The position numbers were made by a program, and so were the translations under genes. From assembly GCA_015231405.1 (NCBI GenBank), contig JADGBR010000003.1:93549-157548 (forward strand): a stretch of DNA of 64,000 nt, read 5' to 3'. The stretch is from Candidatus Omnitrophota bacterium. GTDB lineage: Bacteria; Omnitrophota; Gorgyraeia; Tantalellales; Tantalellaceae. The first letter of the stretch is position 1, and each line of letters opens with the position of its first letter. Below are positions 1,995 to 46,800 of this stretch, in pieces. The notes under the pieces are model-generated. The model was not told the DNA's origin and did not search any database. It saw only the letters and a list, made by a program, of their open reading frames with translations.

Positions 1995-3689
1995 ATGTTT
2001 GGAAAAGAGCTCAAGAGGTTTTTCGTGTTTTCGGTCAAGTATCCGGCGGCCTTCCTTTTAATGGCTTTCCTGATCATTCCGGACAATGTTTTTGCGGCTG
2101 TCCTGAATGATCTCTATCGGCCCATTCTTCCTCAAAAAATGTTCCTGTACTCCGGTAAAACCCGGCTATTGAGCACCGATGAGGACGGGATACACGGGCT
2201 CGACCCTTTCGGGAAGTTCGATTCGCGGCCCTTGACCGTCGATACGACGAACCGTCTATCCGCGTCAATTATGGATAACTGGGAGATCTCTTTTTCAAGC
2301 TCCGAGTATCTGCCTGCGCATTATTCAAGAAAGACATATTCAACCAACAGCTCGCTTAATATCACCCAGGAATACGATCTTGATTCGTTCAGGGATTATT
2401 CCATAGGTTCCAGGGTGAGGGTGAATAACTGTCTTGAATTATTCGGCTCTGTCGGGGCGAGATGGGGCAAGACCAACTGGGACCTTTATTCGTCGACGAC
2501 TACGCGGTTCGCTCACATATTGTCCCGCTATTCTTACGCGGATCTGGGCGCACGTTATCTTTCCGATGGAGGGAATAACGACCCCGGGAAAAACCTTTCT
2601 CTCGTATTCAGGCCGCTATTATGCCCCGGCCAGGTCAACGTGGAGACGGGGATATCCGCCGACAGGGGGACGATAGACCGCGAATATTATTATTACACTA
2701 ACGGCGGTGGCAGTACATTTTATTACGAATTCGACCACAGGCTCAAGCCTTCGTTCAATACTTACGCGCGTATCAGAACGGGCGTCGGCGGCGATATGGA
2801 AATGGGCTCCGGAATAAAGTTCAGGACGCCGCTTATTTATCGCTATACGTACAAGCTGAAAACCGTAAGCACGGGGCTTATGTCATCCGTCTCGGGGGAA
2901 TATTCGCAGTTCAACGATTTTACCGTTCCCCTCGACATGGTCTATCGCAATTCCGAAAGGTTCGAGACGCGCATATCCGCGGATACAAGGGTAACCGTAC
3001 AAAGGCTTAAATATAGGTCCGGAGCGACGACCGGCGTGATAACTGGATATCCCCAAAAAGATCTGACGGCTTTGAGCTCAAACCCGCGCGCGGACTTTTT
3101 TTATTTGCTGGGGGATTGTACGGCGGCGAAGCGCGAGAAGTTCGATCTTATCGCCCGACCGGGCCTTGCTAAGGGCCAGCTCTTGCTCAACGCCGGATCG
3201 GAGATGGACCTGGCAGCGATAATGAGGGATACCGATCATGACACATTGAACCTGATAGACCCCTATAGCGTCTTTTCGGGTCCGCTCGATTATTTTTCCC
3301 CGGGTAACGAGCAGTATGCCTTTTTTCTTGGGAATACTTCTAATTACGCGGCTAATGTGCTCCCTCAAAATTATTGGAAATATTATTTCGGCGGAAGATA
3401 CGGGTTGTCTAAGGGAGAGGAAATAAGAGTTAATATGGGTTTTTCGTCGCCTAGCTCCCTTGAACATTACACGCTGAACGATCTCAAGAAACGGTGGTAT
3501 AGATTTTGCCCGGGATATTTCTATGAGTTTGGTTATGATATGCGCCTCTCGGACAGGGCGTCATTCTCGGTCAGGTCAAGATATGTCCCTGAATACGCGA
3601 CATTTTTGATCATTGAAGGGGATCAAAGACAGTATTCATCATTGACGGAATATTTGGATGTCGCCCTATCACTGGATATCCAGTTCTAG
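1995..3689 (+). CDS. putative outer-membrane beta-barrel protein (secreted, unknown function)
   Basis: The N-terminal signal peptide is KRFFVFSVKYPAAFLLMAFLIIPDNVFA|AV. The long ORF has alternating hydrophobic and aromatic patterning and ends in an aromatic ...SLDIQF, as OMP barrels usually do. A possible promoter with an extended -10 (tgtggtatact) lies about 15 nt upstream. Confidence 0.45.
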   Translation: MFGKELKRFFVFSVKYPAAFLLMAFLIIPDNVFAAVLNDLYRPILPQKMFLYSGKTRLLSTDEDGIHGLDPFGKFDSRPLTVDTTNRLSASIMDNWEISFSSSEYLPAHYSRKTYSTNSSLNITQEYDLDSFRDYSIGSRVRVNNCLELFGSVGARWGKTNWDLYSSTTTRFAHILSRYSYADLGARYLSDGGNNDPGKNLSLVFRPLLCPGQVNVETGISADRGTIDREYYYYTNGGGSTFYYEFDHRLKPSFNTYARIRTGVGGDMEMGSGIKFRTPLIYRYTYKLKTVSTGLMSSVSGEYSQFNDFTVPLDMVYRNSERFETRISADTRVTVQRLKYRSGATTGVITGYPQKDLTALSSNPRADFFYLLGDCTAAKREKFDLIARPGLAKGQLLLNAGSEMDLAAIMRDTDHDTLNLIDPYSVFSGPLDYFSPGNEQYAFFLGNTSNYAANVLPQNYWKYYFGGRYGLSKGEEIRVNMGFSSPSSLEHYTLNDLKKRWYRFCPGYFYEFGYDMRLSDRASFSVRSRYVPEYATFLIIEGDQRQYSSLTEYLDVALSLDIQF

Positions 3690-3721: not shown

Positions 3722-4372
3722 TTAAAAAGGCGACGGTTCTGGTTGTGGTTCAGGATCAGGCTGTGGTGTTGGAGTTGGAGTCGGCTCAGGATCGGGAACC
3801 GGAGTCGGATCGGGAACCGGAGTCGGATCGGGAACCGGAGTCGGATCGGGAGCCGGAGTCGGATCGGGAGCCGGAGTCGGATCGGGAGCCGGAGTCGGAT
3901 CGGGAGCCGGAGTCGGGTCAGGACCCGGAGAGTTATCTCTCATGACTCTTCCTCTATTTCCGGTAGTTTCCTTTCTGTCCGAGTCCTTATCGTGTCCATA
4001 CGGGGCGATCATCGCAACCTTTCCCATATTTCCTTGCTCACGCTTATCTCGAGGATGAAAACCCCAGTTAGATCTCATTTCTCGCATTTCTTTTACTTCG
4101 CCTCTTTCACTTCGATCAATATGTGACATTTCCTTACGATCTTGCACTATTTCTTTGCGTATTTCTTTGCGTATTTCTTTGTTTTCCCTGATACTTTCTC
4201 TGATCTCTTTCATCTCAGAACCTTTTCCATGATCCTCGTCATTACGCCCGTTATTTTCTTTAAGATCATTTTTATCATTCTTATCCTCTTTATCATTTTT
4301 CGCCAGACAAAACGAAATACTAAAAGAACATAAAAACCACCCCGCTAACATTATAATTAAAATCTTTTTCAT
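3722..4372 (-). CDS. secreted low-complexity protein: signal peptide, K/E/D/R-rich region and C-terminal (PDPTP[AV])n repeat tail
   Basis: On the minus strand, the ORF has a clear signal peptide (MKKILIIMLAGWFLCSFSISFCLA) and an RBS gagaggtga directly upstream. The C-terminal 60 aa are encoded by an 18-bp tandem repeat. The overlapping + strand ORFs (DREPES repeats) are frame artefacts of the same repeat. Confidence 0.6.
   Translation of the reverse strand: MKKILIIMLAGWFLCSFSISFCLAKNDKEDKNDKNDLKENNGRNDEDHGKGSEMKEIRESIRENKEIRKEIRKEIVQDRKEMSHIDRSERGEVKEMREMRSNWGFHPRDKREQGNMGKVAMIAPYGHDKDSDRKETTGNRGRVMRDNSPGPDPTPAPDPTPAPDPTPAPDPTPAPDPTPVPDPTPVPDPTPVPDPEPTPTPTPQPDPEPQPEPSPF
3789..3932. repeat. 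18-bp in-frame tandem repeat: ggatcggga[a/g]ccggagtc x7, plus one degenerate copy
   Basis: Counted directly from the sequence: three aacc units then four agcc units. It encodes TPVPDP/TPAPDP on the minus strand. Confidence 0.9.
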
Positions 4373-4647
4373 AGCTCACCTCTCAAGTTATACTAAGATA
4401 AAGTAAGAAATAACATAAAAACAATACTATCTAAATCTTTATACCTAACATTAAGTATACACTATTAGGAGGGTATATGCAACTTTCGAAAAAAAACCAT
4501 ACAGGTCCGATGAAAGTTTTCGATCGGTTTAATTTTCCTAAAGCCTAAGTCAGGACTGCCGAACTCGTCGAAAAAATTAACGCTGCCTGGATGGCGTTAA
4601 AAAAAACATAAGTTAAGATTATTAAAAGTAAATATTCTAGCGTGGTA

Positions 4648-4671: not shown

Positions 4672-7600
4672 ATGGAAAAATTATTTAGATATATTTCTTG
4701 GGTTGTGGTCCTAGCGTTTGTCTGTAGGTTAACTTCGCCCGAAGTAACATTTGCCGGAACGGATACTGCCTGCGAAATCGCGCTTAGTCCACCTTCGCGG
4801 TTAAAACCTCCCTGTGAAATAGTATGGACAGTTGGGCAGAAAGGGGGATATGAGTACGACATTGTTACCAACGATCATCCTGATATGGAAAAAGCATGGC
4901 GGGATGTGGAGAAAAATGAGGTTAAAAAGCTGGATGGAAAACTGAACGGGGAAGACACGATAATTGAAATGCTAGGAGGGCGGGTACCAGGAGGGGCCTT
5001 TAGGAACAGGTTCGCTCTGGCGGATATCGGCTGTCTTATGGCGCAGATGATCGCGATAACGAACGAACATAAGATCGAAGATCCGGCAAAGATACTTATC
5101 CCTTTAACGCTTAAACATCTTGGACGTAAGAACGGTTTAGAGGAAGTTCTTCTCGAAGGGTTTAATATCGGCGGGATAGAGGCTGTAAGGGAAGGCGGCG
5201 CGGTAACGAAATTCAGGATGCCTGTCATGAGAAATAACATTCCGGTATGGTGGCTTTGTTTTGAGCCTGCCACTATAAAAGACCCTCCCGAAGTTCCGGA
5301 TCTCGGTGTAAATATTACGACAGAGCCGTTCGGCGAGGCCGAAGACAACAAGGCCAGGGAACCGCTAAAAACCCAACCTTATCAGGACTTCATGCGCCAG
5401 GGGAACGGAGGCGTAATGCCTCTGGGGGATGATCCATTATCCGCGAATACGTCGCGAGATCTGCATCTTAAACGGCTCTGGGATCCGGAGGGTAATTCCG
5501 GCGGTAAAGAGCTGGATAACCTGGATAAGTATTTCAGCAGGGTGCCGCGTTCCTATAAGAACATACCCGACCTCGGCTCGGGCCTCCTGTCAAAGAGACT
5601 GGCCCATCCTTTGAGGGATAAACGGATGATAGAACGCTCGCAAGAGGGGATAAGGGCGATAGCGGATATGCCCGGAGAGGACCGGGAAGATCTATACAAA
5701 CATTTGGACCTCTTCTACAAGTATTTTGACGATTTCACTTATTCCTGGTTCCATAGTGATGGCGGCCGAAATCGTGATCAATACAGGAAAAGTTTGTTTT
5801 TTCTCTCTAAAATAGCGGATGAGCTCGAAGCTGTCCGCGGAATACTCAACGCCAAAGGCCGGAAGGGTAAATTTGTCCTTCCCGAAAAGATCGAGAAACT
5901 GCTTAAAGATAAGAACTTTTCGAAGGTGCGCGAATATTTCGCGAATTATCCGCTTGGAGAGGATGATATGCCGGGTCGCGATCTCGACTGGTTACATGAA
6001 TCGGCAAGGGCTTTAAGGGAAGGCTGGGGCCGCACCGATCATGAACGATACTTTTGGAGGGGGATCCCGCTGACACCGTTCTGGCAAGGCATAACAGGTT
6101 ATGATGAAAGGGACCGTAAAGGGGAATTTACTCCCGCTGTTATGAGGCGAATAGAAGAGTTCGAAAAGCTTGAAGAGGCTTTGAAAAAAGAGCCCAATGA
6201 ACGGATAGGGAATTTGCCGCGGCGTATCACGGAAAATATGAACGAGCTCCTTTTCGCGCTGGGCGGAGCGAATATGATCGAGGAAGGCCATTATTCAATT
6301 CCGGAAGGGACCGACGGGTCGGGCATCATACATCTTGAAAAGGCATGGAACCCGGTTGCCGGAACTTATGATCGTACCGATAAACTGGATATAGATCTCG
6401 GTGCGGATTCAAATTTTCTGGGTCTTACGGGTCCGAATGAGGTCGGTAAAAGCACTGCTATTGAGATGACGGCGCTATGCGTCCTGTATTACCAGATGGG
6501 GCTCCCTATACCGGCTCAGGCGGGGAAGATAGGGATATTCAGGAATATTTATACTGCCGTTCCAGGTTATGAAACACTTGAACCCGGGGAAAGCCAGCAT
6601 ACCGGCCTCATTAAGAGACTGACGGAGATAATAAAGATCGCCGGGCCCCGCGACCTGGTGCTTATAGACGAGGCCCATATGGGGTCGGACTATAAGGACC
6701 TTACGGCCTTAACGACCGTTCTCATGGAGGACCTAGTAGCTACCGGCGCGACGGTGCTCTACGCGACCCATCTCAAGAGCGCTATGCGAAGGATAGCCCA
6801 AAGCGATCCGCGGATAAATCCTAAACAGATCGTTCTAGTCGACGACGAGGACGGCATAGCGCATCGCGTCATGCTGCCGGGTATAGCGGAAAGGAGTTTA
6901 TCAATAAGAACGCTCGAATCGCTGGATTATCCTCCCGAAGTATTGAAGTGGACGGAGGAATATTATGACGCTATTTTGAGCGGTACTCCCGTTCCCGGAA
7001 CTGCCGAACGTCCGGTTATAACCAAGCGTAAACAAAAGCCCGTCCGCAAAAAAGAGGATGATAGAGGCGAAGCCATAGCCATGGAAGCCGCGAAGGCGTT
7101 GTTCCCCCAGAAGAATTTTTATTATGAGCTCGAGCTGGTCGCGTACCGGTTCGCCAGGGAAGATATCATTAAGTGGGATTCCGTCCCCGGAGCTATTGAC
7201 CTCAAAAAAGCCTTGTTCAAAAGGCCTGTTATCAGGAAATACGAGCCCGAAAAATTCGATGACATCGCCGTTTGCGTAGCGGCCCTTGATAGGATGAATA
7301 ACAGCGTGGTGAATAACTTAAAACGCAAAGCGGCTATGCTCAAAAAGATCCGAAAAGAAGGGCTGATGGATCATACTAAACCTGATGACATGAAAAGCAT
7401 GGTCGAGTTCCTTCATAAAAGTGTTGAACGTTTTAAAGGTTTCGACTTTGCCGATAGTTTTAAGGTATACGGCTGGGTAGAAGACCCTGAAACCGGAAGA
7501 AGAATGGACAGGGTGCCGGTCAACACGCCCAGAGAGATCAGAAAACACTATAGACAAAGCGTGAGACAACTGAAACACGAGTACGATACCCTCATGGGAT

Positions 7601-9012
7601 CTTTTTCCCTCCCGGAATTACGTAGGCTGGATTATCTGTCGGGTATAGCCGAGTCGATGCGCGAGAACGACCTTCATTTCGTTGAGCATTTAGGGGAAGG
7701 AGAGACTTTCAGCGTCAAGAACGCCCGTTCACCCTTTATCCCCAGGGATAAAGTCGTCGCTTTAGACTTAGAAGGGGATAGCGCTCACCCTGAGTTCATA
7801 ATAACCGGTCCGAATAAGAGCGGGAAGACGATGTCTATAAGGACTTTGGAGTCACTGGTGTATTTGGCCCGGTTGGATCTCCCGGTGCCGGCCCTGATGA
7901 GAATACCAAAATATGATAAGATGCTTACGTTTTTCGGAGGCAAAGAGGATATGGCCGGAGGCGATTCGTATTTCAGGGACGTCGCGGAGCGGCTTAACTC
8001 TATCCTGAACCAGGCGACATCGGGTTCGCTCGTCATAATGGATGAGTTGCATGGCAGCGACTACTGGGAACTTTCGGCGCTGCAGGCCGCGGTCATAAAA
8101 TATCTGGACGCCATAGGCGCTACCGTGATCCTTGTAACTCATATGCGTGAGGGTCTCGGGATGGCGCGCGAGATAAAGTCAGTGAAGTTCCTTAAGACCG
8201 GTGTCAGGCAGATCTCCGACGGAAGCCTCAAATACGATTATTCGATATCGGAAGATCCTTATCTCGAAGCTAAAAGTTTCGGAGTGGAAAGCGTTAAAGG
8301 TCTTTTAACGGCGAAACAATACAACCGGGTGCTTTCGATAAGGGCGTCAATGGAAAGGGAGGAGGGGAAAAAGGCCCCCGCCGGACCCGCGAGCGGACGG
8401 AATAACCCCGATGAATTCGTCCGTTCCGAAAGCGCGCGCGCGGCGGATCTGAGGGACGCGCTGAACTATGTCATAGGGAAGGAAATGGCCGAGACTTCGG
8501 GTATCGTAGCTCTCGGCACGGGCTGGATAAAGGGGTACGGTAAAGGGCTCTTACAGCATGATGGCCTGAACCCGCTTATTACGTCCTTGAAGGGTTTTTG
8601 CGAGGACCGGATGATACCTTTTGTCGTCGGAGAGGACGACGAACTGCCGGCACTGATAGAGGCGGAAAAAGAGCGCCGTGGAATGCCGGAAAACGCTAAG
8701 GGTATCATTCTCGCGGGCGTGAGCCGTGATGGTGACATGTCGGTCGCGGTCAGAGAACTTCTCGGAAATAAGGATCACACCGTAGTAGGGATCGACGGAC
8801 GCGAATTAACGACCGATAGTTACATAAGGATCCTGGAGATGCTCACAATAGCTCTTAATATTTCCATAGGGATAAAACCATCATTAGACAATGCCAGCAT
8901 GGACATTTTCCCGCCCGATGAGAACCACCCAATATACATCCTCACCCCCCACGCCCTGCCTATGAATTATTTCGAGTTAAAAGCCGTTTACGAAGCCCAG
9001 AAATTCGCGTGA
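4672..9012 (+). CDS. membrane-anchored or secreted protein with two tandem MutS2-like ABC ATPase domains (MutS domain V x2)
   Basis: The ORF is uninterrupted for 4.3 kb. The N-terminal hydrophobic segment is MEKLFRYISWVVVLAFVCRL. Module 1 runs IHLEKAWNPVAG...FLGLTGPNEVGKSTAIEMTALCVLYYQMGLPIPAQAGKIGIFRNIYTAV...LVLIDEAHMGSDYKDLTAL...VLYATHL. Module 2 runs NARSPFIP...FIITGPNKSGKTMSIRTLESLVYLARLDLPVPA...LVIMDELHGSDYWELSAL...VILVTHM. Both follow the MutS/MutS2 pattern GPNxxGKST ... hhhMDEhGRGT ... FATH. I see no Smr domain. The start is taken at the second in-frame ATG, where the signal-like segment begins. Confidence 0.7.
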   Translation: MEKLFRYISWVVVLAFVCRLTSPEVTFAGTDTACEIALSPPSRLKPPCEIVWTVGQKGGYEYDIVTNDHPDMEKAWRDVEKNEVKKLDGKLNGEDTIIEMLGGRVPGGAFRNRFALADIGCLMAQMIAITNEHKIEDPAKILIPLTLKHLGRKNGLEEVLLEGFNIGGIEAVREGGAVTKFRMPVMRNNIPVWWLCFEPATIKDPPEVPDLGVNITTEPFGEAEDNKAREPLKTQPYQDFMRQGNGGVMPLGDDPLSANTSRDLHLKRLWDPEGNSGGKELDNLDKYFSRVPRSYKNIPDLGSGLLSKRLAHPLRDKRMIERSQEGIRAIADMPGEDREDLYKHLDLFYKYFDDFTYSWFHSDGGRNRDQYRKSLFFLSKIADELEAVRGILNAKGRKGKFVLPEKIEKLLKDKNFSKVREYFANYPLGEDDMPGRDLDWLHESARALREGWGRTDHERYFWRGIPLTPFWQGITGYDERDRKGEFTPAVMRRIEEFEKLEEALKKEPNERIGNLPRRITENMNELLFALGGANMIEEGHYSIPEGTDGSGIIHLEKAWNPVAGTYDRTDKLDIDLGADSNFLGLTGPNEVGKSTAIEMTALCVLYYQMGLPIPAQAGKIGIFRNIYTAVPGYETLEPGESQHTGLIKRLTEIIKIAGPRDLVLIDEAHMGSDYKDLTALTTVLMEDLVATGATVLYATHLKSAMRRIAQSDPRINPKQIVLVDDEDGIAHRVMLPGIAERSLSIRTLESLDYPPEVLKWTEEYYDAILSGTPVPGTAERPVITKRKQKPVRKKEDDRGEAIAMEAAKALFPQKNFYYELELVAYRFAREDIIKWDSVPGAIDLKKALFKRPVIRKYEPEKFDDIAVCVAALDRMNNSVVNNLKRKAAMLKKIRKEGLMDHTKPDDMKSMVEFLHKSVERFKGFDFADSFKVYGWVEDPETGRRMDRVPVNTPREIRKHYRQSVRQLKHEYDTLMGSFSLPELRRLDYLSGIAESMRENDLHFVEHLGEGETFSVKNARSPFIPRDKVVALDLEGDSAHPEFIITGPNKSGKTMSIRTLESLVYLARLDLPVPALMRIPKYDKMLTFFGGKEDMAGGDSYFRDVAERLNSILNQATSGSLVIMDELHGSDYWELSALQAAVIKYLDAIGATVILVTHMREGLGMAREIKSVKFLKTGVRQISDGSLKYDYSISEDPYLEAKSFGVESVKGLLTAKQYNRVLSIRASMEREEGKKAPAGPASGRNNPDEFVRSESARAADLRDALNYVIGKEMAETSGIVALGTGWIKGYGKGLLQHDGLNPLITSLKGFCEDRMIPFVVGEDDELPALIEAEKERRGMPENAKGIILAGVSRDGDMSVAVRELLGNKDHTVVGIDGRELTTDSYIRILEMLTIALNISIGIKPSLDNASMDIFPPDENHPIYILTPHALPMNYFELKAVYEAQKFA

Positions 9013-9109
9013 TCGAAGTCAGCGTAAAAGGTCGCACTATCGTTCGCGGAACATCCTGTCGTCTGGCCTGAGGTTGTAGTATAATGCTCGGAACAAAAAA
9101 GGAGGGGTC

Positions 9110-9388
9110 ATGGTCAAGGCTGCGGCGAGGCATATTCTGGTGGAGACTAAGAAACAGGCGGAGGATATAAAGTCGAAGATCGCGAAGGGTGAGGATTTCG
9201 GAGAGATGGCAAAAAAATTTTCTCAGTGCCCTTCGGGTAAACAGGGCGGGAAACTCGGCGAGTTCACTCCGGGCCAAATGGTAAAAGAATTCGATCTGGT
9301 TGTTTTCTCCGCCGAAGTTGGAAAGGTCCACGGCCCGGTCCAGACCGAGTTCGGGTATCATCTCATAGAGATCACCAGAAGGGGATAA
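9110..9388 (+). CDS. ppiC: parvulin-type peptidyl-prolyl cis-trans isomerase (PpiC/Par10-like)
   Basis: 92 aa. A strong RBS aaaggagg and a -10 tataat sit upstream. The sequence is typical for a single-domain parvulin: HILV...FxxxAxxxSxCPSGKQGGxLGEFTPGQMVKEF...GYHLIEI. Confidence 0.85.
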   Translation: MVKAAARHILVETKKQAEDIKSKIAKGEDFGEMAKKFSQCPSGKQGGKLGEFTPGQMVKEFDLVVFSAEVGKVHGPVQTEFGYHLIEITRRG

Positions 9389-9469
9389 TAATGCCCTCAT
9401 ATTTACCGAAAATATAAAAGGATCGGGCAGGATCAGTTTGATCCGGGAGAGAAGGCCCGAAGGCAGAAC

Positions 9470-10660
9470 ATGGAACTGGTCATACACAGAGACGAAAAAA
9501 AGATCGGTGGGAGTTTGGTCGAGATACGTTCGGGTTCGTCTCGGATCGTCGTCGATCCGGGTCTTCCTTATGAGGGAGAGGCTAGGGGCGTGGATGGGGT
9601 TCTCGTTTCGCGCGCAGATCCCGATCATTACTTGTTACAGGGGCATATAAGCCCGGATATACCCGCATATATGAGCCGGGGGGCTAAAGAGCTTATCGAT
9701 ATCACGGGGATGTTCAGTTCTCTAAAGTCGCGCTTGGGCAATGTCTCAGTTATATCGAAGCCCGGGCCTTTTGCCGTTGGGGAGTTCATGATCACCCCTT
9801 ATCCGGTTGACCATTCCGCTTTCGACGCGCTGGCGTTCCTGATAGAAGCCGGAGGCAAGAGGGTGTTCTATTCAGGGGATTTCCGCGGGCATATGGGGAA
9901 AAGCCTTCTTTTTGCCCGTATGGTCAAGGACCCGCCGATTGGTGTGGATTGTTTTCTTATGGGAGGGACGACGCACATGCGCGGTGAAAGTGATTTCCCG
10001 GACGAACGAGCTGTCGAGCGGAGGATAGAAGAGATATTAAAGGGAAAAGGGAATATTAAATTCCTTTTCGCTTCATCCGTGAACATCGACAGGCTCCTCT
10101 CCGCTTACAGGGCTTGCCATCGCACCGGCTCCATCTTTGTCATCGATCTGTATACGGCGTATATCCTGGACAAGCTTCGGAAAGTCTATAAAAACATCCC
10201 TGAGTTCGACCCGAAGAACATGGCCGTCAGGTTCACAAGAGCCTACGCCGATAAACTCGAGGAGGCGGGATTGAGGGACCTCCTTTATGTTTATAATAAG
10301 AGGAAGATAGACATTTTCGATATCGGGAGGAAAAAGGAAAGGATACTCATGTTGGCCGGCGACAACCCGGTATTCCCTGTGACGCTTAAGGAGCTGGGGG
10401 GATCTGAAGGCGCTAAAATAGTATATTCCATGTGGGAGGGTTATCTCACCGAAAAGTTCAGGGCTTACGCGGCGGGGAAAGGCATATCCATCGAAACGGT
10501 GCATACGAGCGGCCACGCTGATGCAGACGATCTTAAAAAGTTCGCCTCCGCGATGAACCCAAAGACCCTCATTCCTATCCACACGCCGGACCCCGATCAG
10601 TATCCCGCGCTTTTTAATAACGTGAAAGTCCTCGCGGATAAAGAAATATTTTGCGTTTGA
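9470..10660 (+). CDS. MBL-fold metallo-hydrolase of the beta-CASP (RNase J/CPSF-like) family with an atypical motif 2
   Basis: 396 aa. The C-terminal beta-CASP motif C is ETVHTSGHADADDL...LIPIHT. Motifs VDHSAF, YSGDF and GGTTHM are present. The canonical HxHxDH is replaced by SRADPDH, so the two His are missing. Confidence 0.55.
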   Translation: MELVIHRDEKKIGGSLVEIRSGSSRIVVDPGLPYEGEARGVDGVLVSRADPDHYLLQGHISPDIPAYMSRGAKELIDITGMFSSLKSRLGNVSVISKPGPFAVGEFMITPYPVDHSAFDALAFLIEAGGKRVFYSGDFRGHMGKSLLFARMVKDPPIGVDCFLMGGTTHMRGESDFPDERAVERRIEEILKGKGNIKFLFASSVNIDRLLSAYRACHRTGSIFVIDLYTAYILDKLRKVYKNIPEFDPKNMAVRFTRAYADKLEEAGLRDLLYVYNKRKIDIFDIGRKKERILMLAGDNPVFPVTLKELGGSEGAKIVYSMWEGYLTEKFRAYAAGKGISIETVHTSGHADADDLKKFASAMNPKTLIPIHTPDPDQYPALFNNVKVLADKEIFCV

Positions 10661-37627: not shown

Positions 37628-37824
37628 ATAATAATACCCACAACGACCCAACTACTCGAATAAACCCCCGTTGCTCTCAGAAGTTAGGGCGAGGAGGTGC
37701 ACTTTTGTATCAAACGTTAAGACAACAAAATTCAGCATACCATCTATTGTATTTGTTAACCATATGGGTATATTTAATAAGAATGTAATTAATAACAATT
37801 GTGAAGGGAAAACTGTGCCCAATT

Positions 37825-40800
37825 ATGAATAACTTTAATAAACAATTAATACTAAGAATTATCTCCTTGTCCACCGCTATCGTATTTCTGTTCCAGAGTA
37901 CGGTATACGGGGAAGCTCCGGCAATTACGGAAAGGTCGATAGAAAAGATAATTATCCCGGGGGAACTGGCTTCTGTGAAAAGCTCGAGCTTCACGGGGGG
38001 CGGGGATATTATCGTCCATATACAGGACGCGCATTGCGATCTTAACGGACAGCTTGCCATATCCAAAATACTTGAATATCTGGAAAAGAGATACGCCCTT
38101 AAGGATATTTATCTTGAAGGAGGGTCCGGAGGGTATGACCTTTCGATATTTAAAAGCATAGCGGATACCGGTGTCAGGCGGCAGGTTTCGGAAAAGTTCC
38201 TTGCTATGGGAGAGATAAGTGCGGCGGAATATTACGCAGTGAACGCGGATATAGCGCCTCTCCTTCAAGGCGTCGAGGACCCTGAACTGTATATCAGGAA
38301 CCTCGACGTATACAGGGGATCAAAGCTATATCGTGATAAAGCCCTGGAAATAGTGAACGCGGCCGGCAAGCGTTTGGACGAGCTCAAAACCCGGATAATG
38401 GGAAAAGAGCTTTTGGAACTGGAAACAAAATACGCCGCTTATTCGAACGATTCTCTTAAGATCAGGGATTACCTGGCATATCTATTCGTCGCAGCCGCTA
38501 AAACCGGATGCGATATCGGCGGTCTTCCGGAAGGGATATCACGATTGAAGAGCGTTCTCGACTCTGAGGAAAAAGTCAATTTCGGCAAGGCCGAAATTGA
38601 CCGGGAAAAGCTTTTGGGCATTCTTTTGGCGAGGTTGCCAGAGACGCGGAAAGAAGATCTTGTAAGGATGGTAGTCGCCTTCAAGCGCGGGGAGATATCG
38701 GGAGCGGAGTTTTACGGGTACCTTACAAAGAGAGCCGAAGAATCCGGCGTGGACGTCTCGTCCCAAATGAAAGATCTCGTGGCCTATGCCGGGTATGTCA
38801 GGGATTACGCCGAAATAGACAGGTCTTCGATCATGGACGGTATCGAGGCTCTTAAGACCGCTATATCCGAAAAATTTATTACCCGGGATGAAGAAAGAAC
38901 GCTTATCCGGCTCGATGAAGGGTTCGGGATGATCAAAAAGATATTCAATTTCAGCGTAACGAGCTCGGAATACAAAAAAGCCCTTAGTATGGATATCGCT
39001 GAGATGTATGGGGAGCTAGAGGCGCTTAACGGGAAGGGAGAGAACTCCGTGGACGCTCCGGAGCTTAAAGACTATTTCGATAGGATCAAGCCTTTTTATG
39101 AACACTCACTTCGAAGGGATGAGGTATTCATTGGCAATATACCCAGTGGGAACAAAGGCTCAGCCCCCCGCGTCATCGCTCTCGTTACCGGAGGGTTCCA
39201 TTCGGAAAACCTGTATGAGTTATTCAAAAAAAGAGGGTTTTCATATATTTCTGTCATACCTGAATTTTCGATATCCGAAGGTGAGAACCGCTATTTTGAT
39301 ATCCTTTCGGGCGAACAGTGCGGGCTTTCAAAAAGGATAAGTGCGGCCGTATCGTCTCTTCAGGTGGCGAGCAAATTGAACTTAGGGCTTGGAACAAAAA
39401 TATGGGGCGAGAGGGGCATCGAGGATTTCGAGGCGGCGCTGTATACGGAAGCGCTGGCCGAAAGCGGGTACAGGGTAGAGATAACGGATGAAAGCACCGG
39501 GGAGGTCGTATTCTCTAACGGGGACGAAAAAAACACCCTAATAAAGATCGGCAAAAACCGATTTTTATCGGACGTCCATCAAGAGTTCATCGATAAGGTC
39601 ATGACGGAAGACGAGAAGAATTACCGTGACCTTAACCCTATGGAAAGAAGCGCGGCCGAAAGGGCAGTTAGAGATATTATCGCGATAATGCCGGATACCA
39701 CGACACAGGATAGATCGGCCCGGTCGTCAGTTGAGGGACTGCTTGGGGTTAAGGCGCTTACCGGAAAAGAAGGCATCCGCGTATCGCTGAAACTTGAAGA
39801 AAGTAGACGCGACGGGCATGCCGGGGGCTGGGGAATAAGGATACGTGAGGAGCTCACCGACGAAGACGCGGTCTATAAAGTGATAAGGCATGAGATCCTT
39901 GCGGGGTTACTCAGGAATCACTCTATGGTCGGGGCGGTCGAAGGGTTTATGGATACGGATGAAACCCAAAGCGCCAGGGCATTCATGGCCGACGCGGAGA
40001 ACCGGCATGAAGGGATGAATGCCCTGTGGGATATCGAAGACAACGCGCGGCATAACATCGAAAGGGATCATTCGACTAAGGGCGGCGAAAAAGAGATAAA
40101 GGACGAGGATGTGCGTGAAATACTCGCCGAAAGGAAGTTCCTTGAACCGTCCGAAAGAGAAGAGCTGGTCAGGTTCATTATGGGATTTCATAAAGATTAT
40201 GACAAATACCTGAGCGTGATGAGGTCGAATAGCCCGGATCCTGCTAGATATAAAATATCTATCAGGGAGATAAAACGGTTCGCCGTGGAGGTCGAGAGGA
40301 TATTTAAAAAAGTGCTGAGCGAGAAAGAGACACGCGTGGAAGCGCTTAGTGTCGCCCGCGGGCAGTCTCTTTTTAATGTATACCTGGATTTTGTGGCCGG
40401 TGACGAAATAGTGGAGGCGAATAGGCGTACAGGGTATAAATTCCCTGATGTGGAATTGGGAGTGTGGAGTCAGAACCTTATCACGAGCTATGGGGCAGCT
40501 GATCGTTATTATGTAGATGGCCTCGCGAGAAAAGGCGAACAATTCGATACTAATATTTTCCAGAACACTGAGAGGAAACTGGGATACGCCCTGGAAAGCG
40601 GCATGCCGTCGCTTTTTATCAAGAACGATAACTCCCTTGGGGCCTTCGAGCAAGCGCTTTCAAAATATGTTTCCGAGAACAACGCCGAACTCCATTCCAT
40701 GCAGTGCACCCCATACAGCGACACGACCCAGCTCCTTGGCGGATATGTCCCCCGGGAAAGGGTGAATAAGGGCGAGGCGTACAAAATAATAGAGGGGATA

Positions 40801-43800
40801 ATAGGGGATGACGCCGAGATACGCGGAATACTCGAAAAACTCCTTTCGAGAGAACCCCTCGATAAGGAAATACGGGATTTTAAGGAACTATACGCTAAAA
40901 AAGAAGCCGACGGGTTAATTATAGCCGCGGCGATGGTCAAAAAGAACCCGGATAACTGGCGGAAGAAGCTGGTTTACGAAAAGGGGCTATTGGCCCGTAT
41001 CATCGAAAAATGCAATAAGGAGGGTGGTAAGACATTTATCCTTAACCTTGAGAACGTCGAGGCCCTGCCCGGGAGGGTGCGAGCCCAGCTTAATACGTTC
41101 CTACTTAACGGCGAAATGAGAGTTCCCGGGGCGGACTCGGAAGAGATGCGAAAACTGGTCATGCCGTCTAACCTCAGGATAATAGCGACGATGGGCGAAG
41201 GGTCGGTCCTCGAGGACGGAGCTTTTTATGACAGGTTCGTGAGGAAAAGCGTCGGCGAATGCGATCCCGGAGATCTCAGGGAAGCTATCGAGCGGGACTA
41301 TCCCGGCTTTCCGGAAAGCGTTGTCAAATTGCTCATAATAACATATCACAAATTCAGGGAAAAAGGGATCGAATGCACTGCCAGGGATTTTTTGAATATC
41401 TCGGGTTATGTGTACGGGAGAGCGAAAAACGGGAGTGTCCAAAAAATGTTCAAAGCAGCGGTGGAGGAGATCATCGGCTATTTTACCGTAAGGGACGAAA
41501 ACAGGTATTCATTCACCGATTACGCCGTGGAAATAGAAGCGGCGGCCGAAAATAGCTTTGACGCAAATTTTCTCAGGAAAGTCGGCCCGTCCATCAGGGA
41601 GATGGACCCGTTTGAGATAAAGATAGAATATTCCAAGGGAAGAAAAGAGCTGGTGGTGAACGGGATAGGCCTCCCGGTCAGAAAGGAGATGGGGTCTGCC
41701 ATGCAAGGGGTCATAGACGCCATGAATAAAGCGTCGGAAGGGTTGCCTGAAGAGTTGGCGATAAAACAGGCCCTTGTTGACGAGCTGGATTTTGTGCTCA
41801 CAAAAGATTCAAAAAAGATGTTATGGGCCGTCGCGCGCGCGTATAAGTACGGCAACGGTTTCGTCTGCCTCGAGGGTGTTACCGGAGCAGGTAAGACTTA
41901 TACCGCCGAGATGCTGAGTAAACTCATAGATTTCAAGCGTCCCCAAGGTGAAAGCCGTTTTTACTCCGAACCCGTCGACGCCCAGACGAAAATATCCAGG
42001 TATGTCGGCATGTTCAGGACGGATGAATACGGCTACTATTCGCTCGATAAGACAACCCCTTTCCTCGATATCATAGAGAACGGCGGCGTCGCGGCCATAT
42101 CCGAGATGAACACGGCCGTCAAGGACGACTACGCCAAGCTCGGCTGGTGGTTCAACCAGTTCGCCCGCGGCGACGAAGTCATTTCATTGACGGAATACCC
42201 GGGTTACGGCCCTCTCGGGGCGATGAGCCGTACGGTGAAGAGAAACCCGAGATGTATAGTGATCGTCGACATCAACCCCGAGGATTATGAGGCGAGGGGA
42301 AAACTTCCGGAGGAATTGAGGTCTTATGCCCAAAGGGTATCGGTATCCAAGACCGAAAATAAAGATGACCTTGAATTCGCCGCGTGGGCCTTTCTTAAAC
42401 AGATAACGGATGATAGGAAACGCTGGGCCATTGCTAAACAATTAGCTCTTTATCATCAGGCGCTGGAGGCTGAAGTGATAGCCGCCAATGGAAGAGGTGA
42501 AAGGCATCCGCCGTTAAGTTTCAGGGAGCTTAAAAGGATTTGTAAGGGCGTGAATAATGACTCTGACGTCTTTGCCGCTATAAAAGATGTAAGGGCCCTG
42601 ATCGGGAAGTACTATATCCCGGCGTTCAGGTCAAAAGAAAAACAAGCTGAACTGAGAGACCAGTTCGGAATAAAGGACTATAGCCCTGAAAAAGTGGTAG
42701 AAGAGCTTATTCTCGCTCCGGCCGGAGAAAGGTCCCCTCCGGCGATGGTATTTACATCCGCCGAAGACGATCCGATGGCGGAGCTTGATACCATTACAAA
42801 AGATAAGGACATGGTCACCGTTGAAAAGACTTTGATCACACTTTTTATCGACGAGTTTAAACTTTTGGGCGGATATGTGCCGGTCTCTAACGACTTAACC
42901 CCTGAAAAAGCGGCTGAGCGCATCGGCGTATACTCGAAAGAAGCTCCGGAAAATATAGGATATCTGGGGGAACTATTTCAGGAAATCGCCCAAAAACCTC
43001 TTCCCGCAGATCTGGAACAACTTACCCATCCTGAAGTGCTGAGTCTCGCCGCTGCCCTGGATTCGCTCCGAAACGGCCGTGACTGGCGCGAAAAACTGCG
43101 TTGGGAAAGAGGGATAATACCTCGTCTGATGAAAGAAGCGAGAGAAAACCCAACCAGGACATACATTCTCGCCCTCGAGAATTTTCACAGGATCCGCCCG
43201 GGCGTGGCCGTAGCCTTGAACAGCATCCTCCAGGAAGGCGAATATTACGACCCGGTCTCGAAAAAGAAAGAGACCGTTCCGCCTAACCTCAGGTTCTACG
43301 CGACCGCGATAGAGGAAGCCGAGCTCCCCATATCCATGGCGGAGGAATCGAGGTGGGTGAGGATACATAAGGGGATGAAAACTCAGGGTGAAAAGAAAAG
43401 TGAATTGATCGAATATGCCCGGAAACTCGTTTTGGAAAAGATCAACGCCGGGGAACTACAGTTTGTCGGTAATTATTCCCCCATTGGGTTTACTCGTAGT
43501 GAACAGGCTTTAACCGTGTCTGAAACGATCGTCAGTTCCATCGGAGATGAATTCTTGGAGCTATTCAATGTACCGCAACATAAGGAATACATAGATTCCG
43601 TTATAAACCAGGCTTTTTCTGAAGGGCCGGTAACTACCTCTGAGAGGTGGATTTATGCCCAAAGAATGAGCAAGTATTTGGTATATGGGGCTGCGATGAA
43701 AGCATCTGATAAAGCGGAACATTTTGAAAAAGGTAAACCTTCGCTATGTCCGAGATTATCCGAAAAGGATCAAGACATAAATCTATACGCCATTAAAATG

Positions 43801-46800
43801 TCCAAGAGAAGGATGGAGTGGCGTATTTATGCCGAATTCATCGAATTGTTCGATAGGAACTTTTTCGATTACATAAGCGAAATAAAAGATATGATGTCCA
43901 TGCCTGATATTCTTGCTTGCGTAGACGGGATAATTGAAGAATACGCTGAATATCATGAAAGTCTGAAACCCGGTATGGTCATTGGTAACTATGATTTATT
44001 GCAGAAAATATCGTTAAGGCAGATCAATAAATACATAAGCCGCAACTGTTTTGATAATAATCTTGCTGATAAAACCCCTATGGCAGGCTCGACAGCTAAT
44101 CTCCTCGAAGAAGTCGACGAACTCGTCGAGATCGAAGCCGCTACCTTCCAGGCTTTCAAGAACGGCAAAGTCGTCATTTACGAAGGCGCTCCCGGCGGCG
44201 GCAAGACCGACATGGGTATAGACGTAGCGAACCGCATGGGCCTTAAGAACTTCGTCTATTCCTGCCATGGGAGAGTTCACTCATCTGACCTTCTCGGCGG
44301 GTTCAGACAGGACAAAAGGGGCAATTTCATTTTTACCGGCGAGCCGGACGACGCCGGCAATTTTAAATATAACCCGTTCCTCCAAATGCTCACCCACGGA
44401 GGCGTATTCATATTCGACGAAGGGGCCATAGGCAAAAGGTCACAGGAACTTCTCAGTCTCCTCTCTGGCATCGCGAGGGGCGATAAAGACTTCTTCGTTA
44501 ACGAGCTCCCCGGAAAACCGGCGAGAAAACTTGAGGTCCATAAAGATTTTCACATAATAATTACGATGAACCCCGCCGAAGATACTCCCGGCCGCGAGCC
44601 ACTGCCGCTCGAACTCTATAACCACGCGAGAAGGATCTGGGTGCCGGGGAAAATGTCGGAAGAGTCTTACCGGAAGATAATCACGCGCTTCTTCAAAGAC
44701 GCTTGCGCCAGAAATAAAGTAAACCCTGAGGATATCTTCGCCTCCAACGAAAAAAGCCGCAAAATGTTCTCGGACCTCATAACCGAGATCCATTTCATCA
44801 TCAACGAAATGGTAGGCGAAAGCGTGAGCCTTGAAGAGAGCACAAACCTTCATCTTCTTACACTCAGAGATATGAAGAAACTGGTTAAAGACTTCGTGAA
44901 ACTCTACGCCGCCGGGGTGGATAAAACGGAAGCGCTGAGGCTAGCCATAAGAACAGAATACTTAAGTCAGTTCGACGCGAGATCCGACCGCAACCTCATC
45001 AAGCTCCGTCTCGACGGTACTTTCCTCGGCGCCGGCAAAAAGGAGATGGCCGACCAATTCCAAACCGAAAAAATATACCTGGGGACGGTGATATCGACCA
45101 TGGGGAAACCAGTCGACCCGGAGACGCTTAAGCTGATAGACAGGAAACGGCAAAAACAAGGTGAGCTGCAAACTCCCGGAATGAGGACGGAAAAACCATT
45201 ATCTCCATTTGAGCCCGGTAATGTTGCCCGCCTCCCCGGCGACGTTTTAAAGAAGCCCGCCAGATTCGCGAAAGACTGGCGGGAGATAAATGGGGATCCG
45301 GGTATCGATCAGGGACGGGAACGGGGGACGGTCGAGGTGGCCGAAGAGAAGTCTTTGGCGCTTTTTGACAGGTTCAGCCCTACCGACGGTGAAGCGGTCT
45401 ATTGGAAGGAAACAGCGAAGGATCGTATAGCCACACCCCAGACCGTTGTTCCGCTAGAAGGCCCGGGTGAACTACCAGCCGATCTGGATACCCGAATGGC
45501 ATTCGAGCAAAAAGCCTTTACCTATAGTGAGACTGTTCCCGAGATCATCGCGGGAAAGTTGGGCGAGGGTAAGGGCGTTATGAACGCTTTATACTCCGAA
45601 TGGTCAATTACGGAACTTTACAAGACATTGAAGATTGGAGATAAGCGTGTTACGGGTATAGAGGTAATAGAGATCGGAGGCGAAGAATGCCTGGTCACAT
45701 CGGCCGGTAAGGCTGTTCAGGTGTGGCGGAAGACGCCCTCGGGATGGGATGTAACGACGCTTCTCGGGAGTACCCGGGGTATCAACGTTTTAAGAACGAT
45801 AAAGCGCGGCGGTAAAACATGCATAGTGACAGGTTCTGTCTCTGGTCTAGTGATGATGTGGGAACCGGACGGAGGCGGGTGGAAAGCTACTCGGTTATAC
45901 GGCTATGCCGGCAATGACGTAACAGCTTTAGCCGTTATGAGGAGAGTTGTCGACGGAGAGGAAAAAGAATGCCTGGTTACCGGCGGAAGTGACGGGAAGA
46001 TCTATCTATACGAGGAAGGTAAAGACGGGTGGGGATACACTTGTTTTAAAGTGGGATCGGAGCCTATACTCAGTCTGGAAGTCATGAAATTTAAAGACAA
46101 GGGTAACAGTATTGTAGCGGCCGGCGGATACGGTACCGTAAAGGCTCTATATTCTCCTGGCGGGAATGACTGGGCCGGGGAGTATGTTTTCAGCGAGAGG
46201 TGGTCTACGGGATCTTTTATCTGCCCCGATAAAACTGAGAACGGAACGTTTTTTACGAGCGGGTACGTCGATAATGTGACGGATATGTCGGGTGTCTGGC
46301 GCTTCGAGCCGGGCGCGACGGACAATGCGGGTGTTATTTACGACGCACATGCTAAAGGAGCCGTCCGGGACATGAAAGGATTCGGGCTTAACGGTGAAAA
46401 TATGTACGTTTCGGCGGGTCTTGACGGTAGGATCATATTATGGAAAGAGGCAAAAGAGAAACCCGCTTCCGGTGAACAGCCGTCGCTTATGCCGATAAAC
46501 GTCCTCTTTGAAAAAGAAGACGTAAAGTTCAATAAACTCCTGGTCACCGACATCGAGATAGGAGGTAAATCACGGAAATGCGTCCTCGCCGGGACCACGA
46601 CCGGCGAGGTCATGATCTTCAACCTCGAGCAGGAGAAGTATATCGAGGAGAACAAGCGGCGCCTCGCTCCGGAGGATCCGGAAGCCGCTCTGCCCGTGCC
46701 GGAAAAGCCCGAACTCCCGTACGGTTTGGGCGAAGAAGCTATTTTCAGGCCTACTGAATTCGCGGATGCGGGGCGGATATTCGATAGGGAGATAACGGGG

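What the first reader, a model, noticed from the sequence alone, without database searches (positions are those of the whole stretch)
4672..9012. Membrane-anchored protein with two tandem MutS2-type ABC ATPase domains (an intramolecular MutS pseudo-dimer?)
Two complete copies of the MutS domain V core sit about 470 aa apart in one chain: GPNEVGKST ... LVLIDEAHMGSD ... YATH, and GPNKSGKTM ... LVIMDELHGSDY ... LVTH. Each is preceded by the MutS2-like connector IHLEKAWNPVAG / NARSPFIP. MutS ATPases act as dimers with composite sites, so a tandem fusion would dimerise within one polypeptide. I see no mismatch-binding, clamp or Smr domains. The N-terminus is a hydrophobic signal-like segment. This is not a repair MutS. 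It looks like a MutS-type ATPase motor recruited into a membrane-associated protein of unknown function.
Basis: partly seen in the sequence, partly recalled or inferred. Interest (0 to 1): 0.7.

Follow-up and report, generated by a model that had tools for sequence, protein, structure and literature searches.

The report
Single-chain twin MutS ATPase cassette
One 1446-residue protein of an uncultured Omnitrophota bacterium carries two MutS-type ATPase units fused in a single chain; this roughly 1000-residue "twin MutS" block recurs, always in the same order, inside the giant multi-domain proteins of that phylum, and it looks like a self-contained ATP-driven clamp rather than a DNA mismatch repair enzyme.

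Summary
The ORF at 4672..9012 (+), 1446 aa, has two MutS_V domains that each pass Pfam's threshold alone (80 and 73 bits against a cut-off of 30.2). Both keep the Walker A, Walker B, signature-Ser and His motifs. Pfam finds no MutS_I, II, IV or Smr.

New here:
- **A conserved cassette.** Residues ~235-1235 form a block found in 34 other cluster representatives at E<=1e-30. The order is always D1 then D2. Most copies sit in ORFs of 2,000 to more than 7,000 aa, and most named sources are Omnitrophota.
- **An old duplication.** D1s and D2s form separate clades (84% and 82% bootstrap), and their distance matrices correlate at r=0.92.
- **Asymmetric decay.** Some members have one dead half.
- **Shared end modules.** The flanking ~200-aa N- and C-terminal modules also occur in proteins whose middles are HATPase_c or methyltransferase domains.

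Not supported: a stable membrane anchor (the segment looks like a Sec signal peptide) and any link to the AAA gene. The cellular role is unknown.

The parts
4672..9012 (+). Complete ORF, 1446 aa plus stop. An alternative in-frame GTG start lies at 4642. The NCBI record MBF0215944.1 starts at M72, which is window position 4885.
   Evidence: Homologues align from residue 7-8 onward, so the longer start is the better one.
4672..4758 (+). Signal-peptide-like N-terminus, aa 1-29: MEKLFR, then the hydrophobic stretch YISWVVVLAFVC, then R...EVTFA|G.
   Evidence: heuristic only; no SignalP or DeepTMHMM was available. Similar N-termini occur in P0002-P0008 and P0120.
4771..5271 (+). N-module, aa ~34-200, with conserved ALSPP..KPPCEI, FRNR.A..D and ILIPL..KH motifs. 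No known family matches it.
   Evidence: It is 34-38% identical to the N-termini of P0002-P0008 and P0120, whose middles are different. Pfam finds nothing. The profile against PDB sequences gives a best E of 0.04.
5374..8376 (+). Twin-MutS cassette, aa ~235-1235. This is the unit that recurs in other proteins.
   Evidence: It aligns end to end with P0116 (51% identity over aa 193-1234) and P0117 (42% identity over aa 237-1234). One search found 34 proteins at E<=1e-30.
5419..6327 (+). Helical region before D1, aa 250-552, resembling the MutS core/lever. It contains the motifs PLSANTSRDLHL and GSGLLSKRLAHPLRDKRMIERSQEGIRAI (aa 302-330).
6328..6996 (+). D1, the first MutS_V ABC ATPase with its C-terminal helix-turn-helix, aa 553-775. 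Walker A K593, signature S641, Walker B D666/E667, H700.
6997..7071 (+). Basic, low-confidence linker between the units, aa 776-800 (..RPVITKRKQKPVRKKEDDRGE).
   Evidence: Model residues 587-594 have pLDDT below 50.
7072..7701 (+). Helical region before D2, aa 801-1010. It has long paired helices with a short beta-hairpin near aa 933-949.
   Evidence: AF2 secondary structure. It is homologous to the pre-D1 region only over the last ~41 residues.
7702..8355 (+). D2, the second MutS_V ABC ATPase with its helix-turn-helix, aa 1011-1228. Walker A K1052, signature S1099, Walker B D1124/E1125, H1157.
8425..9009 (+). C-module, aa 1252-1446, a flavodoxin-like alpha/beta domain. It always lies at the extreme C-terminus and ends ...YEAQKFA.

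Best explanation
**What the gene encodes.** It is a modular Omnitrophota protein built as: Sec-signal-like N-terminus, then an N-module, then a ~1000-aa 'twin-MutS' cassette, then a C-terminal flavodoxin-like module.

**What the cassette is.** It is a covalently fused, MutS2-like pseudo-heterodimer. It has two units, each a helical core/lever followed by a complete MutS domain V ABC ATPase. In ordinary MutS proteins these units are two separate subunits.

**Shown:**
- both ATPase domains are present and catalytically complete in this protein;
- the D1-D2 arrangement is old, is inherited as one unit, and is reused as a block in many giant proteins;
- repair-specific domains are absent.

**Supported by a model and by family patterns, but not proven:**
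- D1 and D2 pack head to tail within one chain, giving two composite ATP sites;
- the two sites are not equivalent.

**Inferred by analogy with MutS, MSH and MutS2:** ATP binding and hydrolysis at the two sites open and close the two helical arms. The cassette would then act as a self-contained ATP-gated clamp or switch on a macromolecule. Nucleic acid is the most likely substrate, but that is only a guess. The cassette would serve as one functional module among others that this protein family swaps between the same N- and C-terminal modules; the other modules include histidine-kinase-type ATPases, methyltransferases and kinases.

**Unresolved:** where the protein acts, whether exported, surface-bound or in the cytoplasm.
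For: **Two complete ATPase domains.** Two MutS_V domains each pass Pfam's threshold alone. Walker A, Walker B, signature Ser and the H-loop His are intact in both. Both domains match PDB MutS and MutS2 sequences.

**A recurring cassette.** The exhaustive search gave 34 proteins at E<=1e-30. These include P0116 and P0117, which align over the whole cassette. In 24 members where both halves could be mapped, the order is always D1-type then D2-type.

**Inheritance as a unit.**
- D1s form a clade with 84% bootstrap support and D2s with 82%. Their nearest outgroup is MutS2.
- The D1 and D2 identity matrices correlate at r=0.92, against a permutation maximum of 0.37.

**Asymmetry, as expected of an obligate pair.**
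- D2 keeps the [S]YF signature in nearly all 24 aligned members, whereas D1 has GYGYF (Ser lost) in the larger clade.
- P0122 has a dead D2. P0153 and P0155 have a dead D1 with an intact partner.

**Structure model.**
- AF2 of aa 201-1235 gives pLDDT 71 and pTM 0.69.
- Foldseek agrees on MutS and MSH.

**Independent recurrence.** Compact [MutS_III+MutS_V]x2 proteins exist in Muribaculaceae, so a fused MutS pair has evolved more than once.

**Modular family.** The N- and C-modules are shared with proteins that carry HATPase_c, methyltransferase, Kdo-kinase-like, PPDK_N-like or RpiB middles. P0120 (5257 aa) has all three elements.

**Taxonomy.** Eight of 12 genome loci are Candidatus Omnitrophota, and 11 of 12 lie in open frames from 1916 aa to more than 7329 aa.
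Against: - Profile-profile comparison did not recognise the helical regions as MutS III/IV. The positive control, MutS2 against MutS1, gave probability 97.6.
- The D1+D2 clade itself has only 56% bootstrap support, and the tree is simple NJ on 210 columns.
- No substrate evidence exists. There is no conserved neighbouring gene and no nuclease or known nucleic-acid-binding domain.
- A Sec-type signal peptide on an ATPase is hard to reconcile with an ATP-dependent function outside the cytoplasm.
- About half of the family lacks such a signal.
Confidence: 0.6

Rival explanations
1. The two ATPase domains do not pair with each other. Instead each pairs with the same or the other domain of a second chain (D1-D1', D2-D2', or a swapped D1-D2'). 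The protein would then work as a dimer or a chain-like oligomer, like ordinary MutS proteins.
For: All characterised MutS proteins dimerise between chains; this is established knowledge, illustrated by the PDB entries listed. The disordered ~25-aa linker would also permit domain swapping. No contact map was available.
Against: - The fixed D1-D2 order and the co-inheritance of the halves argue for a unit.
- Members with one dead half keep the other half intact, which suits a D1-D2 pair better than D1-D1'.
- The single-chain model has pTM 0.69 and matches twin-NBD proteins over about twice the length of single-NBD matches.
Confidence: 0.15
2. The protein is exported through Sec and acts outside the producer's cytoplasm. 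It would be a prey- or host-directed effector of a predatory or epibiotic Omnitrophota cell, and the twin-MutS clamp would use ATP in the target cell to grip its DNA, RNA or ribosomes.
For: - The target and about half of the family, including giant members, have signal-peptide-like N-termini with AxA-like sites.
- The family's other cargo domains (HATPase_c, methyltransferases, kinases) also need cytoplasmic cofactors, yet they sit behind the same signal-like N-terminus.
- Published work proposes host-dependent or predatory lifestyles and secreted giant proteins in this phylum (10.1101/2023.11.21.568195; 10.64898/2026.06.07.730766; PMC10066038, title and abstract).
Against: - The signal peptide call is heuristic only.
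- Cassette proteins without any signal exist: P0141, P0144, P0145, P0148, P0153 and P0155.
- No secretion-system genes lie next to the gene; its neighbours are housekeeping genes.
- No delivery domain was recognised.
Confidence: 0.2
3. It is simply this organism's divergent MutS2 or another DNA repair and recombination MutS, and the duplication has no special meaning.
For: The best NCBIfam hits are mutS2 and MutS. The top structural matches are MutS, MSH and MutS2.
Against: - Its scores lie far below the equivalog cut-offs: 169 against 400 for mutS2 and 141 against 641.7 for mutS1.
- It has no Smr, MutS_I, MutS_II or MutS_IV domain.
- It has a signal-like N-terminus and foreign end modules.
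- The same cassette is embedded in proteins of 2,000 to more than 7,000 aa.
Confidence: 0.03
4. The cassette is mainly a structural or regulatory scaffold. Nucleotide binding without productive turnover would only set its conformation, and it would do no mechanical work on a substrate.
For: Some members have lost the catalytic residues in one half. D1 of the larger clade has lost the signature Ser.
Against: In the target, and in nearly all of the 24 aligned members, Walker A Lys, Walker B Asp-Glu and the H-loop His are kept in both halves across 20-50% sequence identity. That indicates selection on catalysis.
Confidence: 0.1

Closest known systems
MutS2 / RqcU (B. subtilis, T. thermophilus, T. 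maritima; PDB 7qv3, 7vuf, 9kce)
   Same: - The domain V ATPase is the closest by tree and by NCBIfam.
- Both share the G[ST]D.xE..A motif after Walker B.
- Both lack mismatch-binding domain I.
   Different: - MutS2 is a homodimer of one unit per chain and carries KOW and Smr domains. Here two diverged units lie in one chain with no KOW or Smr.
- The target has a signal-like N-terminus and foreign end modules.
- Its TIGR01069 score of 169 is below the cut-off of 400.
Eukaryotic MutS heterodimers (MSH2-MSH6, MSH2-MSH3)
   Different: The MSH subunits are separate polypeptides with mismatch-binding and connector domains. Here the two units are fused and lack those domains.
Single-chain twin-NBD ABC proteins (ABCF: EttA, VmlR, LsaA; UvrA; ABCE1)
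   Different: They belong to different ABC subfamilies and have no MutS lever arms. The resemblance is in principle of construction, not in ancestry beyond the ABC fold.
Compact tandem [MutS_III+MutS_V]x2 proteins of Muribaculaceae (P0176, P0214)
   Same: These also have two MutS units in one chain, with both Walker A and Walker B motifs intact.
   Different: - Their halves are 52-57% identical to each other, so the duplication is recent. D1 and D2 here are about 23% identical.
- They have clear Pfam MutS_III hits and total ~830-880 aa.
- They show no specific relation to either the D1 or the D2 clade.
- No paper on them turned up in my searches, which were not aimed at them specifically.
Long and giant multi-domain proteins of Omnitrophota (West-Roberts et al. 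2023 preprint; 2026 preprint 'A complete-genome view of phylum Omnitrophota')
   Same: - Same phylum.
- Same domain vocabulary in relatives, namely HATPase_c, methyltransferase and PPDK_N.
- N-terminal signal peptides are frequent.
- The cassette is embedded in ORFs from 1916 aa to more than 7329 aa.
   Different: The target is short at 1446 aa. Neither paper mentions MutS; the term occurs zero times in each.
KamC (lysine 5,6-aminomutase reactivase ATPase, NF052383)
   Same: It is a MutS_V-type ATPase used for a purpose other than DNA repair. The target gives a partial hit at 108 bits.
   Different: The score is below the cut-off of 300. KamC has a single ATPase unit, and the target's gene neighbourhood holds no aminomutase.

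Membership tests
MutS superfamily (domain V ABC ATPase) | Pfam PF00488 MutS_V above the gathering score | tested here: met
   Met twice: 80.4 and 73.1 bits against a cut-off of 30.2.
MutS superfamily (domain V ABC ATPase) | Walker A GK[ST], Walker B DE, signature Ser and H-loop His | tested here: met
   D1 has K593, D666/E667, S641 and H700. D2 has K1052, D1124/E1125, S1099 and H1157.
MutS superfamily (domain V ABC ATPase) | Helical core/lever (domain III) preceding the ATPase | tested here: inconclusive
   Pfam MutS_III reaches only E 0.08 and hhalign is negative. The AF2 model, however, aligns 360-450 residues to single MutS or MutS2 chains.
MutS superfamily (domain V ABC ATPase) | Two ATPase domains paired head to tail with composite sites | tested here: inconclusive
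MutS1 (mismatch repair MutS, TIGR01070 / NF003810) | Equivalog score above the cut-off; domains I, II and IV present | tested here: not met
   141 bits against 641.7 and 161 against 480. No PF01624, PF05188 or PF05190 hit.
MutS2 (TIGR01069) | Equivalog score above the cut-off; C-terminal Smr (PF01713) | tested here: not met
   169 bits against 400. No Smr hit. True MutS2 hits all carry PF01713.
KamC reactivase ATPase (NF052383) | Equivalog score above the cut-off | tested here: not met
   107.7 bits against 300.
Known anti-phage defence proteins (PADLOC) | A significant full-length match to a defence-system model | tested here: not met
   Only a partial hit to mad8 (E 1e-7, 82 residues within the ATPase core).
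Twin-MutS cassette family (defined here) | D1-type then D2-type MutS_V in one chain, with starts ~400-540 aa apart and a shared pre-D1 motif (..G.PMPL..D.LSA.T..) | tested here: met
   The target is the query. 24 members were mapped. End-to-end alignment with P0116 and P0117.
N-module / C-module 'bookend' family (defined here) | A conserved ~170-aa module after a signal-like N-terminus, plus a conserved ~195-aa module at the extreme C-terminus | tested here: met
Sec-exported protein | A cleavable signal peptide recognised by a trained predictor, or shown experimentally | not testable with these tools
   Only a heuristic was possible: a positive n-region, 12 uncharged residues, then TFA|G.

The most novel reading that the evidence does not exclude
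The twin-MutS cassette is a single-chain, ATP-gated macromolecular clamp. Host-dependent or predatory Omnitrophota export it, alone (as here) or as one module of their giant proteins, and deliver it into other cells. There it uses the victim's ATP to grip DNA, RNA or ribosomes. The conserved N- and C-terminal modules would be the sorting or docking devices of a previously unrecognised cargo-swapping effector system.
Probability: 0.12. Interest if true: 0.85.

Novelty: new variant of a known kind. Interest (0 to 1): 0.62.

Why it matters
MutS proteins are the textbook case of an ATPase that works as a dimer with two unequal composite sites. A natural, conserved single-chain version would have three consequences.

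- **A tool for mechanism.** It fixes which half pairs with which, so each site can be mutated separately in one polypeptide.
- **A wider role for the MutS motor.** It shows the motor has been turned into a portable module, far from mismatch repair. Known non-repair uses are few; two examples are MutS2 in ribosome rescue and KamC.
- **A foothold in the giant proteins.** It gives a first recognisable, testable functional block in the largely unannotated giant proteins of Omnitrophota. The 1446-aa protein in this window is the smallest complete context in which to study that block. The shared N- and C-terminal modules also point to a cargo-swapping protein family that had no description in the libraries or papers I searched.

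Tried and rejected
- **Conserved gene neighbours.** None of the window's neighbours has a homologue near relatives. The apparent shared 438-aa upstream ORF in L015 and L016 is a coincidence with no similarity.
- **Link to the 5112-aa AAA_5 protein.** It has no homologue in 15 related loci, and ~29 kb of housekeeping genes separate it from the target.
- **Helical regions as MutS III/IV by hhalign.** Negative; only the last ~41 residues before each ATPase are alike.
- **C-module identity.**
  - Pfam finds nothing.
  - The PDB sequence profile gives a best E of 0.15.
  - It is not homologous to the other C-terminal tails of cassette proteins.
- **N-module identity.** Pfam finds nothing. The best PDB profile hit is T7 gp14 at E 0.04, which is not significant.
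- **Defence-system reading.** PADLOC gives only a partial ATPase-core hit.
- **Phage origin.** Viral contigs hold only single domain V matches of up to ~880 nt, never the cassette.
- **RNA elements and tRNAs in the window.** None found.
- **Tree building.** A first bootstrap run timed out and a second gave a meaningless comb because of NaN distances. Only one search is used.
- **afdb50 fold search.** The library was not available.
- **Literature.** Searches found no description of a tandem or single-chain MutS, nor of MutS domains in Omnitrophota proteins.

Full report
**1. The observation**

The + strand holds one uninterrupted ORF from ATG 4672 to the stop at 9010-9012, 1446 aa. An in-frame GTG at 4642 is a possible alternative start.

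Pfam reports MutS_V with two stretches (E 6e-43). When the protein is cut into pieces, each half passes the gathering score of 30.2 bits alone: aa 585-765 scores 80.4 bits and aa 1043-1209 scores 73.1 bits. There is no hit to MutS_I, II, IV or Smr, and only a weak MutS_III hit (E 0.08, aa 302-354). The two halves are 35% identical over 135 residues. Both match MutS and MutS2 chains in the PDB by sequence.

**2. Source and surroundings**

The only full-length database match is the protein itself, MBF0215944.1, 'MAG: hypothetical protein HQL30_03000, Candidatus Omnitrophica bacterium'. That record starts at M72. Homologues align from residue 7-8 onward, so the annotated start most likely cuts off the signal-like segment and part of a conserved module.

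The neighbouring genes are ordinary:
- an LPG_synthase_C protein;
- a PNPOx-like protein;
- an unannotated 564-aa protein whose N-terminus is hydrophobic and which ends in Phe;
- a proline-rich repeat protein on the other strand;
- downstream, a 92-aa parvulin PPIase, a metallo-beta-lactamase/RMMBL protein, GltB, GltD, PyrG, a rhomboid protease and Asd.

None of these neighbours, and no part of the 5112-aa AAA_5 protein 29 kb downstream, has a homologue in the related loci I fetched.

**3. The protein is modular**

The next-best hits of the whole protein (P0002-P0008, 900-1400 aa) contain no MutS domain at all. They share only the first ~200 residues (34-38% identity) and the last ~200 residues (47-50% identity).

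Their middles hold HATPase_c, SAM methyltransferases, a Kdo/WaaP-like kinase, a weak PPDK_N-like stretch that scores below Pfam's cut-off, or (in a fragment) RpiB. Profile searches with the two end modules found only about two dozen further proteins, mostly fragments, among 5.8 billion clusters. The named ones are Omnitrophota.

**4. The twin-MutS part is a conserved cassette**

An exhaustive phmmer search with aa 250-1235 against 1.84 billion representatives gave 34 proteins at E<=1e-30.
- P0116 (3486 aa) and P0117 (3547 aa, an Omnitrophota MAG) align with the target over the whole stretch, aa ~193/237 to 1234, at 51% and 42% identity.
- P0120 (5257 aa) has the same N-module, the cassette and the same C-module.

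In the 24 members where both halves could be mapped, a D1-type domain is always followed by a D2-type domain, with starts ~400-540 residues apart. A larger clade at 30-37% identity occurs in two forms: stand-alone proteins of ~1000-1240 aa, and blocks inside proteins of 2,200-7,400 aa.

In one-genome-per-species data, 12 loci were found. Eight are labelled Candidatus Omnitrophota and the rest are automatically named bins. In 11 of the 12 the cassette lies in an open frame from 1916 aa to more than 7329 aa. Viral contigs contain only single domain V genes.

**5. History of the two halves**

In a neighbour-joining tree of domain V (210 columns, 200 bootstraps):
- the D1s form a clade (84%);
- the D2s form a clade (82%);
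- D1+D2 group together weakly (56%), next to MutS2 rather than MutS1.

Pairwise identities among D1s and among D2s of the same proteins correlate at r=0.92, with a permutation maximum of 0.37. Within one protein, D1 and D2 are only 17-27% identical over the trimmed alignment. The fusion or duplication is therefore old, and the halves have been inherited together ever since.

Compact [MutS_III+MutS_V]x2 proteins of Muribaculaceae have halves 52-57% identical to each other. They show no specific relation to D1 or D2, so a fused MutS pair has arisen independently.

**6. Evidence on how it works**

Walker A Lys, Walker B Asp-Glu and the H-loop His are kept in both halves in nearly all members, including the target. 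This argues for real ATPase function at both sites.

The signature motif, which in ABC-type dimers acts on the ATP bound to the partner domain (established knowledge), behaves asymmetrically. D2 keeps SYF in nearly all members. D1 keeps the Ser in the target's clade (GESQH) but has lost it (GYGYF) in the larger clade. Some members have one completely dead half next to an intact one: P0122 has a dead D2, and P0153 and P0155 have a dead D1. This pattern is typical of obligate heterodimeric ABC pairs.

The AF2 model of aa 201-1235 has pLDDT 71 and pTM 0.69. That pTM is high for a 1035-residue multi-domain chain in which 177 residues have pLDDT below 50.

The simplest reading is that the model places D1 and D2 like the two NBDs of an ABC twin, that is, as an intramolecular head-to-tail pair. 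Foldseek agrees on MutS and MSH as the closest folds.

Two caveats apply. I could not inspect coordinates or PAE, and hhalign did not recognise the helical regions as MutS III/IV.

**7. Localisation**

The target's N-terminus has K3 and R6, then 12 uncharged hydrophobic residues, then TFA|G. There is no other TM-like segment. This resembles a cleavable Sec signal peptide more than a stable anchor.

Similar N-termini, often with AYA|S-type sites, occur in about half of the complete family members. The other half have none. An exported ATPase is puzzling, and the same puzzle has been noted for giant Omnitrophota proteins in general (10.64898/2026.06.07.730766). I leave the topology open.

**8. 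Comparison and verdict**

The protein belongs to the MutS superfamily through its two domain V ATPases. It fails the tests for MutS1, MutS2 and KamC and for known defence proteins.

It works most like a MutS2 or MSH dimer fused into one chain. In construction it parallels ABCF and UvrA twin-NBD proteins.

I found no paper describing a tandem or single-chain MutS, or MutS domains in Omnitrophota proteins.

I rate it a new variant of a known kind. The architecture and its conservation are well supported. The intramolecular pairing is likely. The substrate and the cellular role are unknown.

Noticed in passing
window 4672-5271 and 8425-9009; P0002-P0008, P0120: The first ~200 and last ~200 residues are conserved 'bookend' modules. 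They are shared with proteins whose middles are completely different (HATPase_c, methyltransferase, Kdo-kinase-like, PPDK_N-like, RpiB). This suggests a cargo-swapping protein family in Omnitrophota that matches no family in the libraries searched.
   Followed up: partly
window 4672-4884: The public annotation (MBF0215944.1) starts at M72. That start drops the signal-like segment and the conserved ALSPP..KPPCEI motif, both of which homologues align to, so the annotated start is probably wrong. An in-frame GTG at 4642 is another possible start.
   Followed up: yes
C-termini of TARGET, P0116, P0119, P0120, P0121, P0124, P0130, P0131, P0135, P0136, P0139: Eleven of ~25 cassette proteins with an intact C-terminus end in [S/A/F]A-COOH (..QKFA, ..LIAA, ..VISA, ..KIAA, ..AAAA, ..AQSA, ..ASSA). 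Their C-terminal ~230 residues are mostly not homologous to one another. This could be a degron (ssrA- or Prc-like) or a sorting signal.
   Followed up: partly
P0176 (879 aa, Muribaculaceae) and P0214 (832 aa): An independent family of compact tandem [MutS_III+MutS_V]x2 proteins in Bacteroidota. The two halves are 52-57% identical and both have intact Walker motifs.
   Followed up: partly
P0122, P0153, P0155: These family members have one catalytically dead half (Walker A Lys, Walker B and His lost) beside an intact half. P0122 has a dead D2; P0153 and P0155 have a dead D1.
   Followed up: partly
window 9110-9388 (+): A 92-aa parvulin-type PPIase (Rotamase, 88 bits) lies directly downstream of the target. 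A published survey notes a conserved Rotamase_2 PPIase near giant Omnitrophota genes.
   Followed up: no
window 37801-53139 (+) and 53594-58939 (+): A 5112-aa ORF carries two AAA_5 (dynein/MoxR-type) domains and WD40-like repeats; most of it is unannotated. It is followed by a 1781-aa ORF with FecR, DUF11, SdrD_B and an OmpL-like beta-barrel. I found no VWA domain at E<=1e-4.
   Followed up: no
window 1995-3689 (+) and 3722-4372 (-): Upstream lies a 564-aa protein with no Pfam match, a hydrophobic N-terminus and a C-terminal Phe (my guess: an outer-membrane barrel). Next to it is a 216-aa protein with a hydrophobic N-terminus and a long PDPTPA-type repeat.
   Followed up: no
window 1-64000: GC skew is positive in every 2-kb window, AT skew is positive in all but one, and most of the large ORFs with a Pfam match lie on the + strand. 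My reading is that the window lies on a leading strand. No tRNA and no Rfam family occurs in 64 kb.
   Followed up: no
window 8960-9628 (-): A 222-aa ORF on the opposite strand overlaps the end of the target and the PPIase gene. It has no Pfam match and is probably spurious.
   Followed up: partly
N-module profile (A2) vs PDB: The only hit of the N-module profile is phage T7 internal virion protein gp14, at E 0.04 over ~60 residues. This is not significant and is recorded only as a lead.
   Followed up: no
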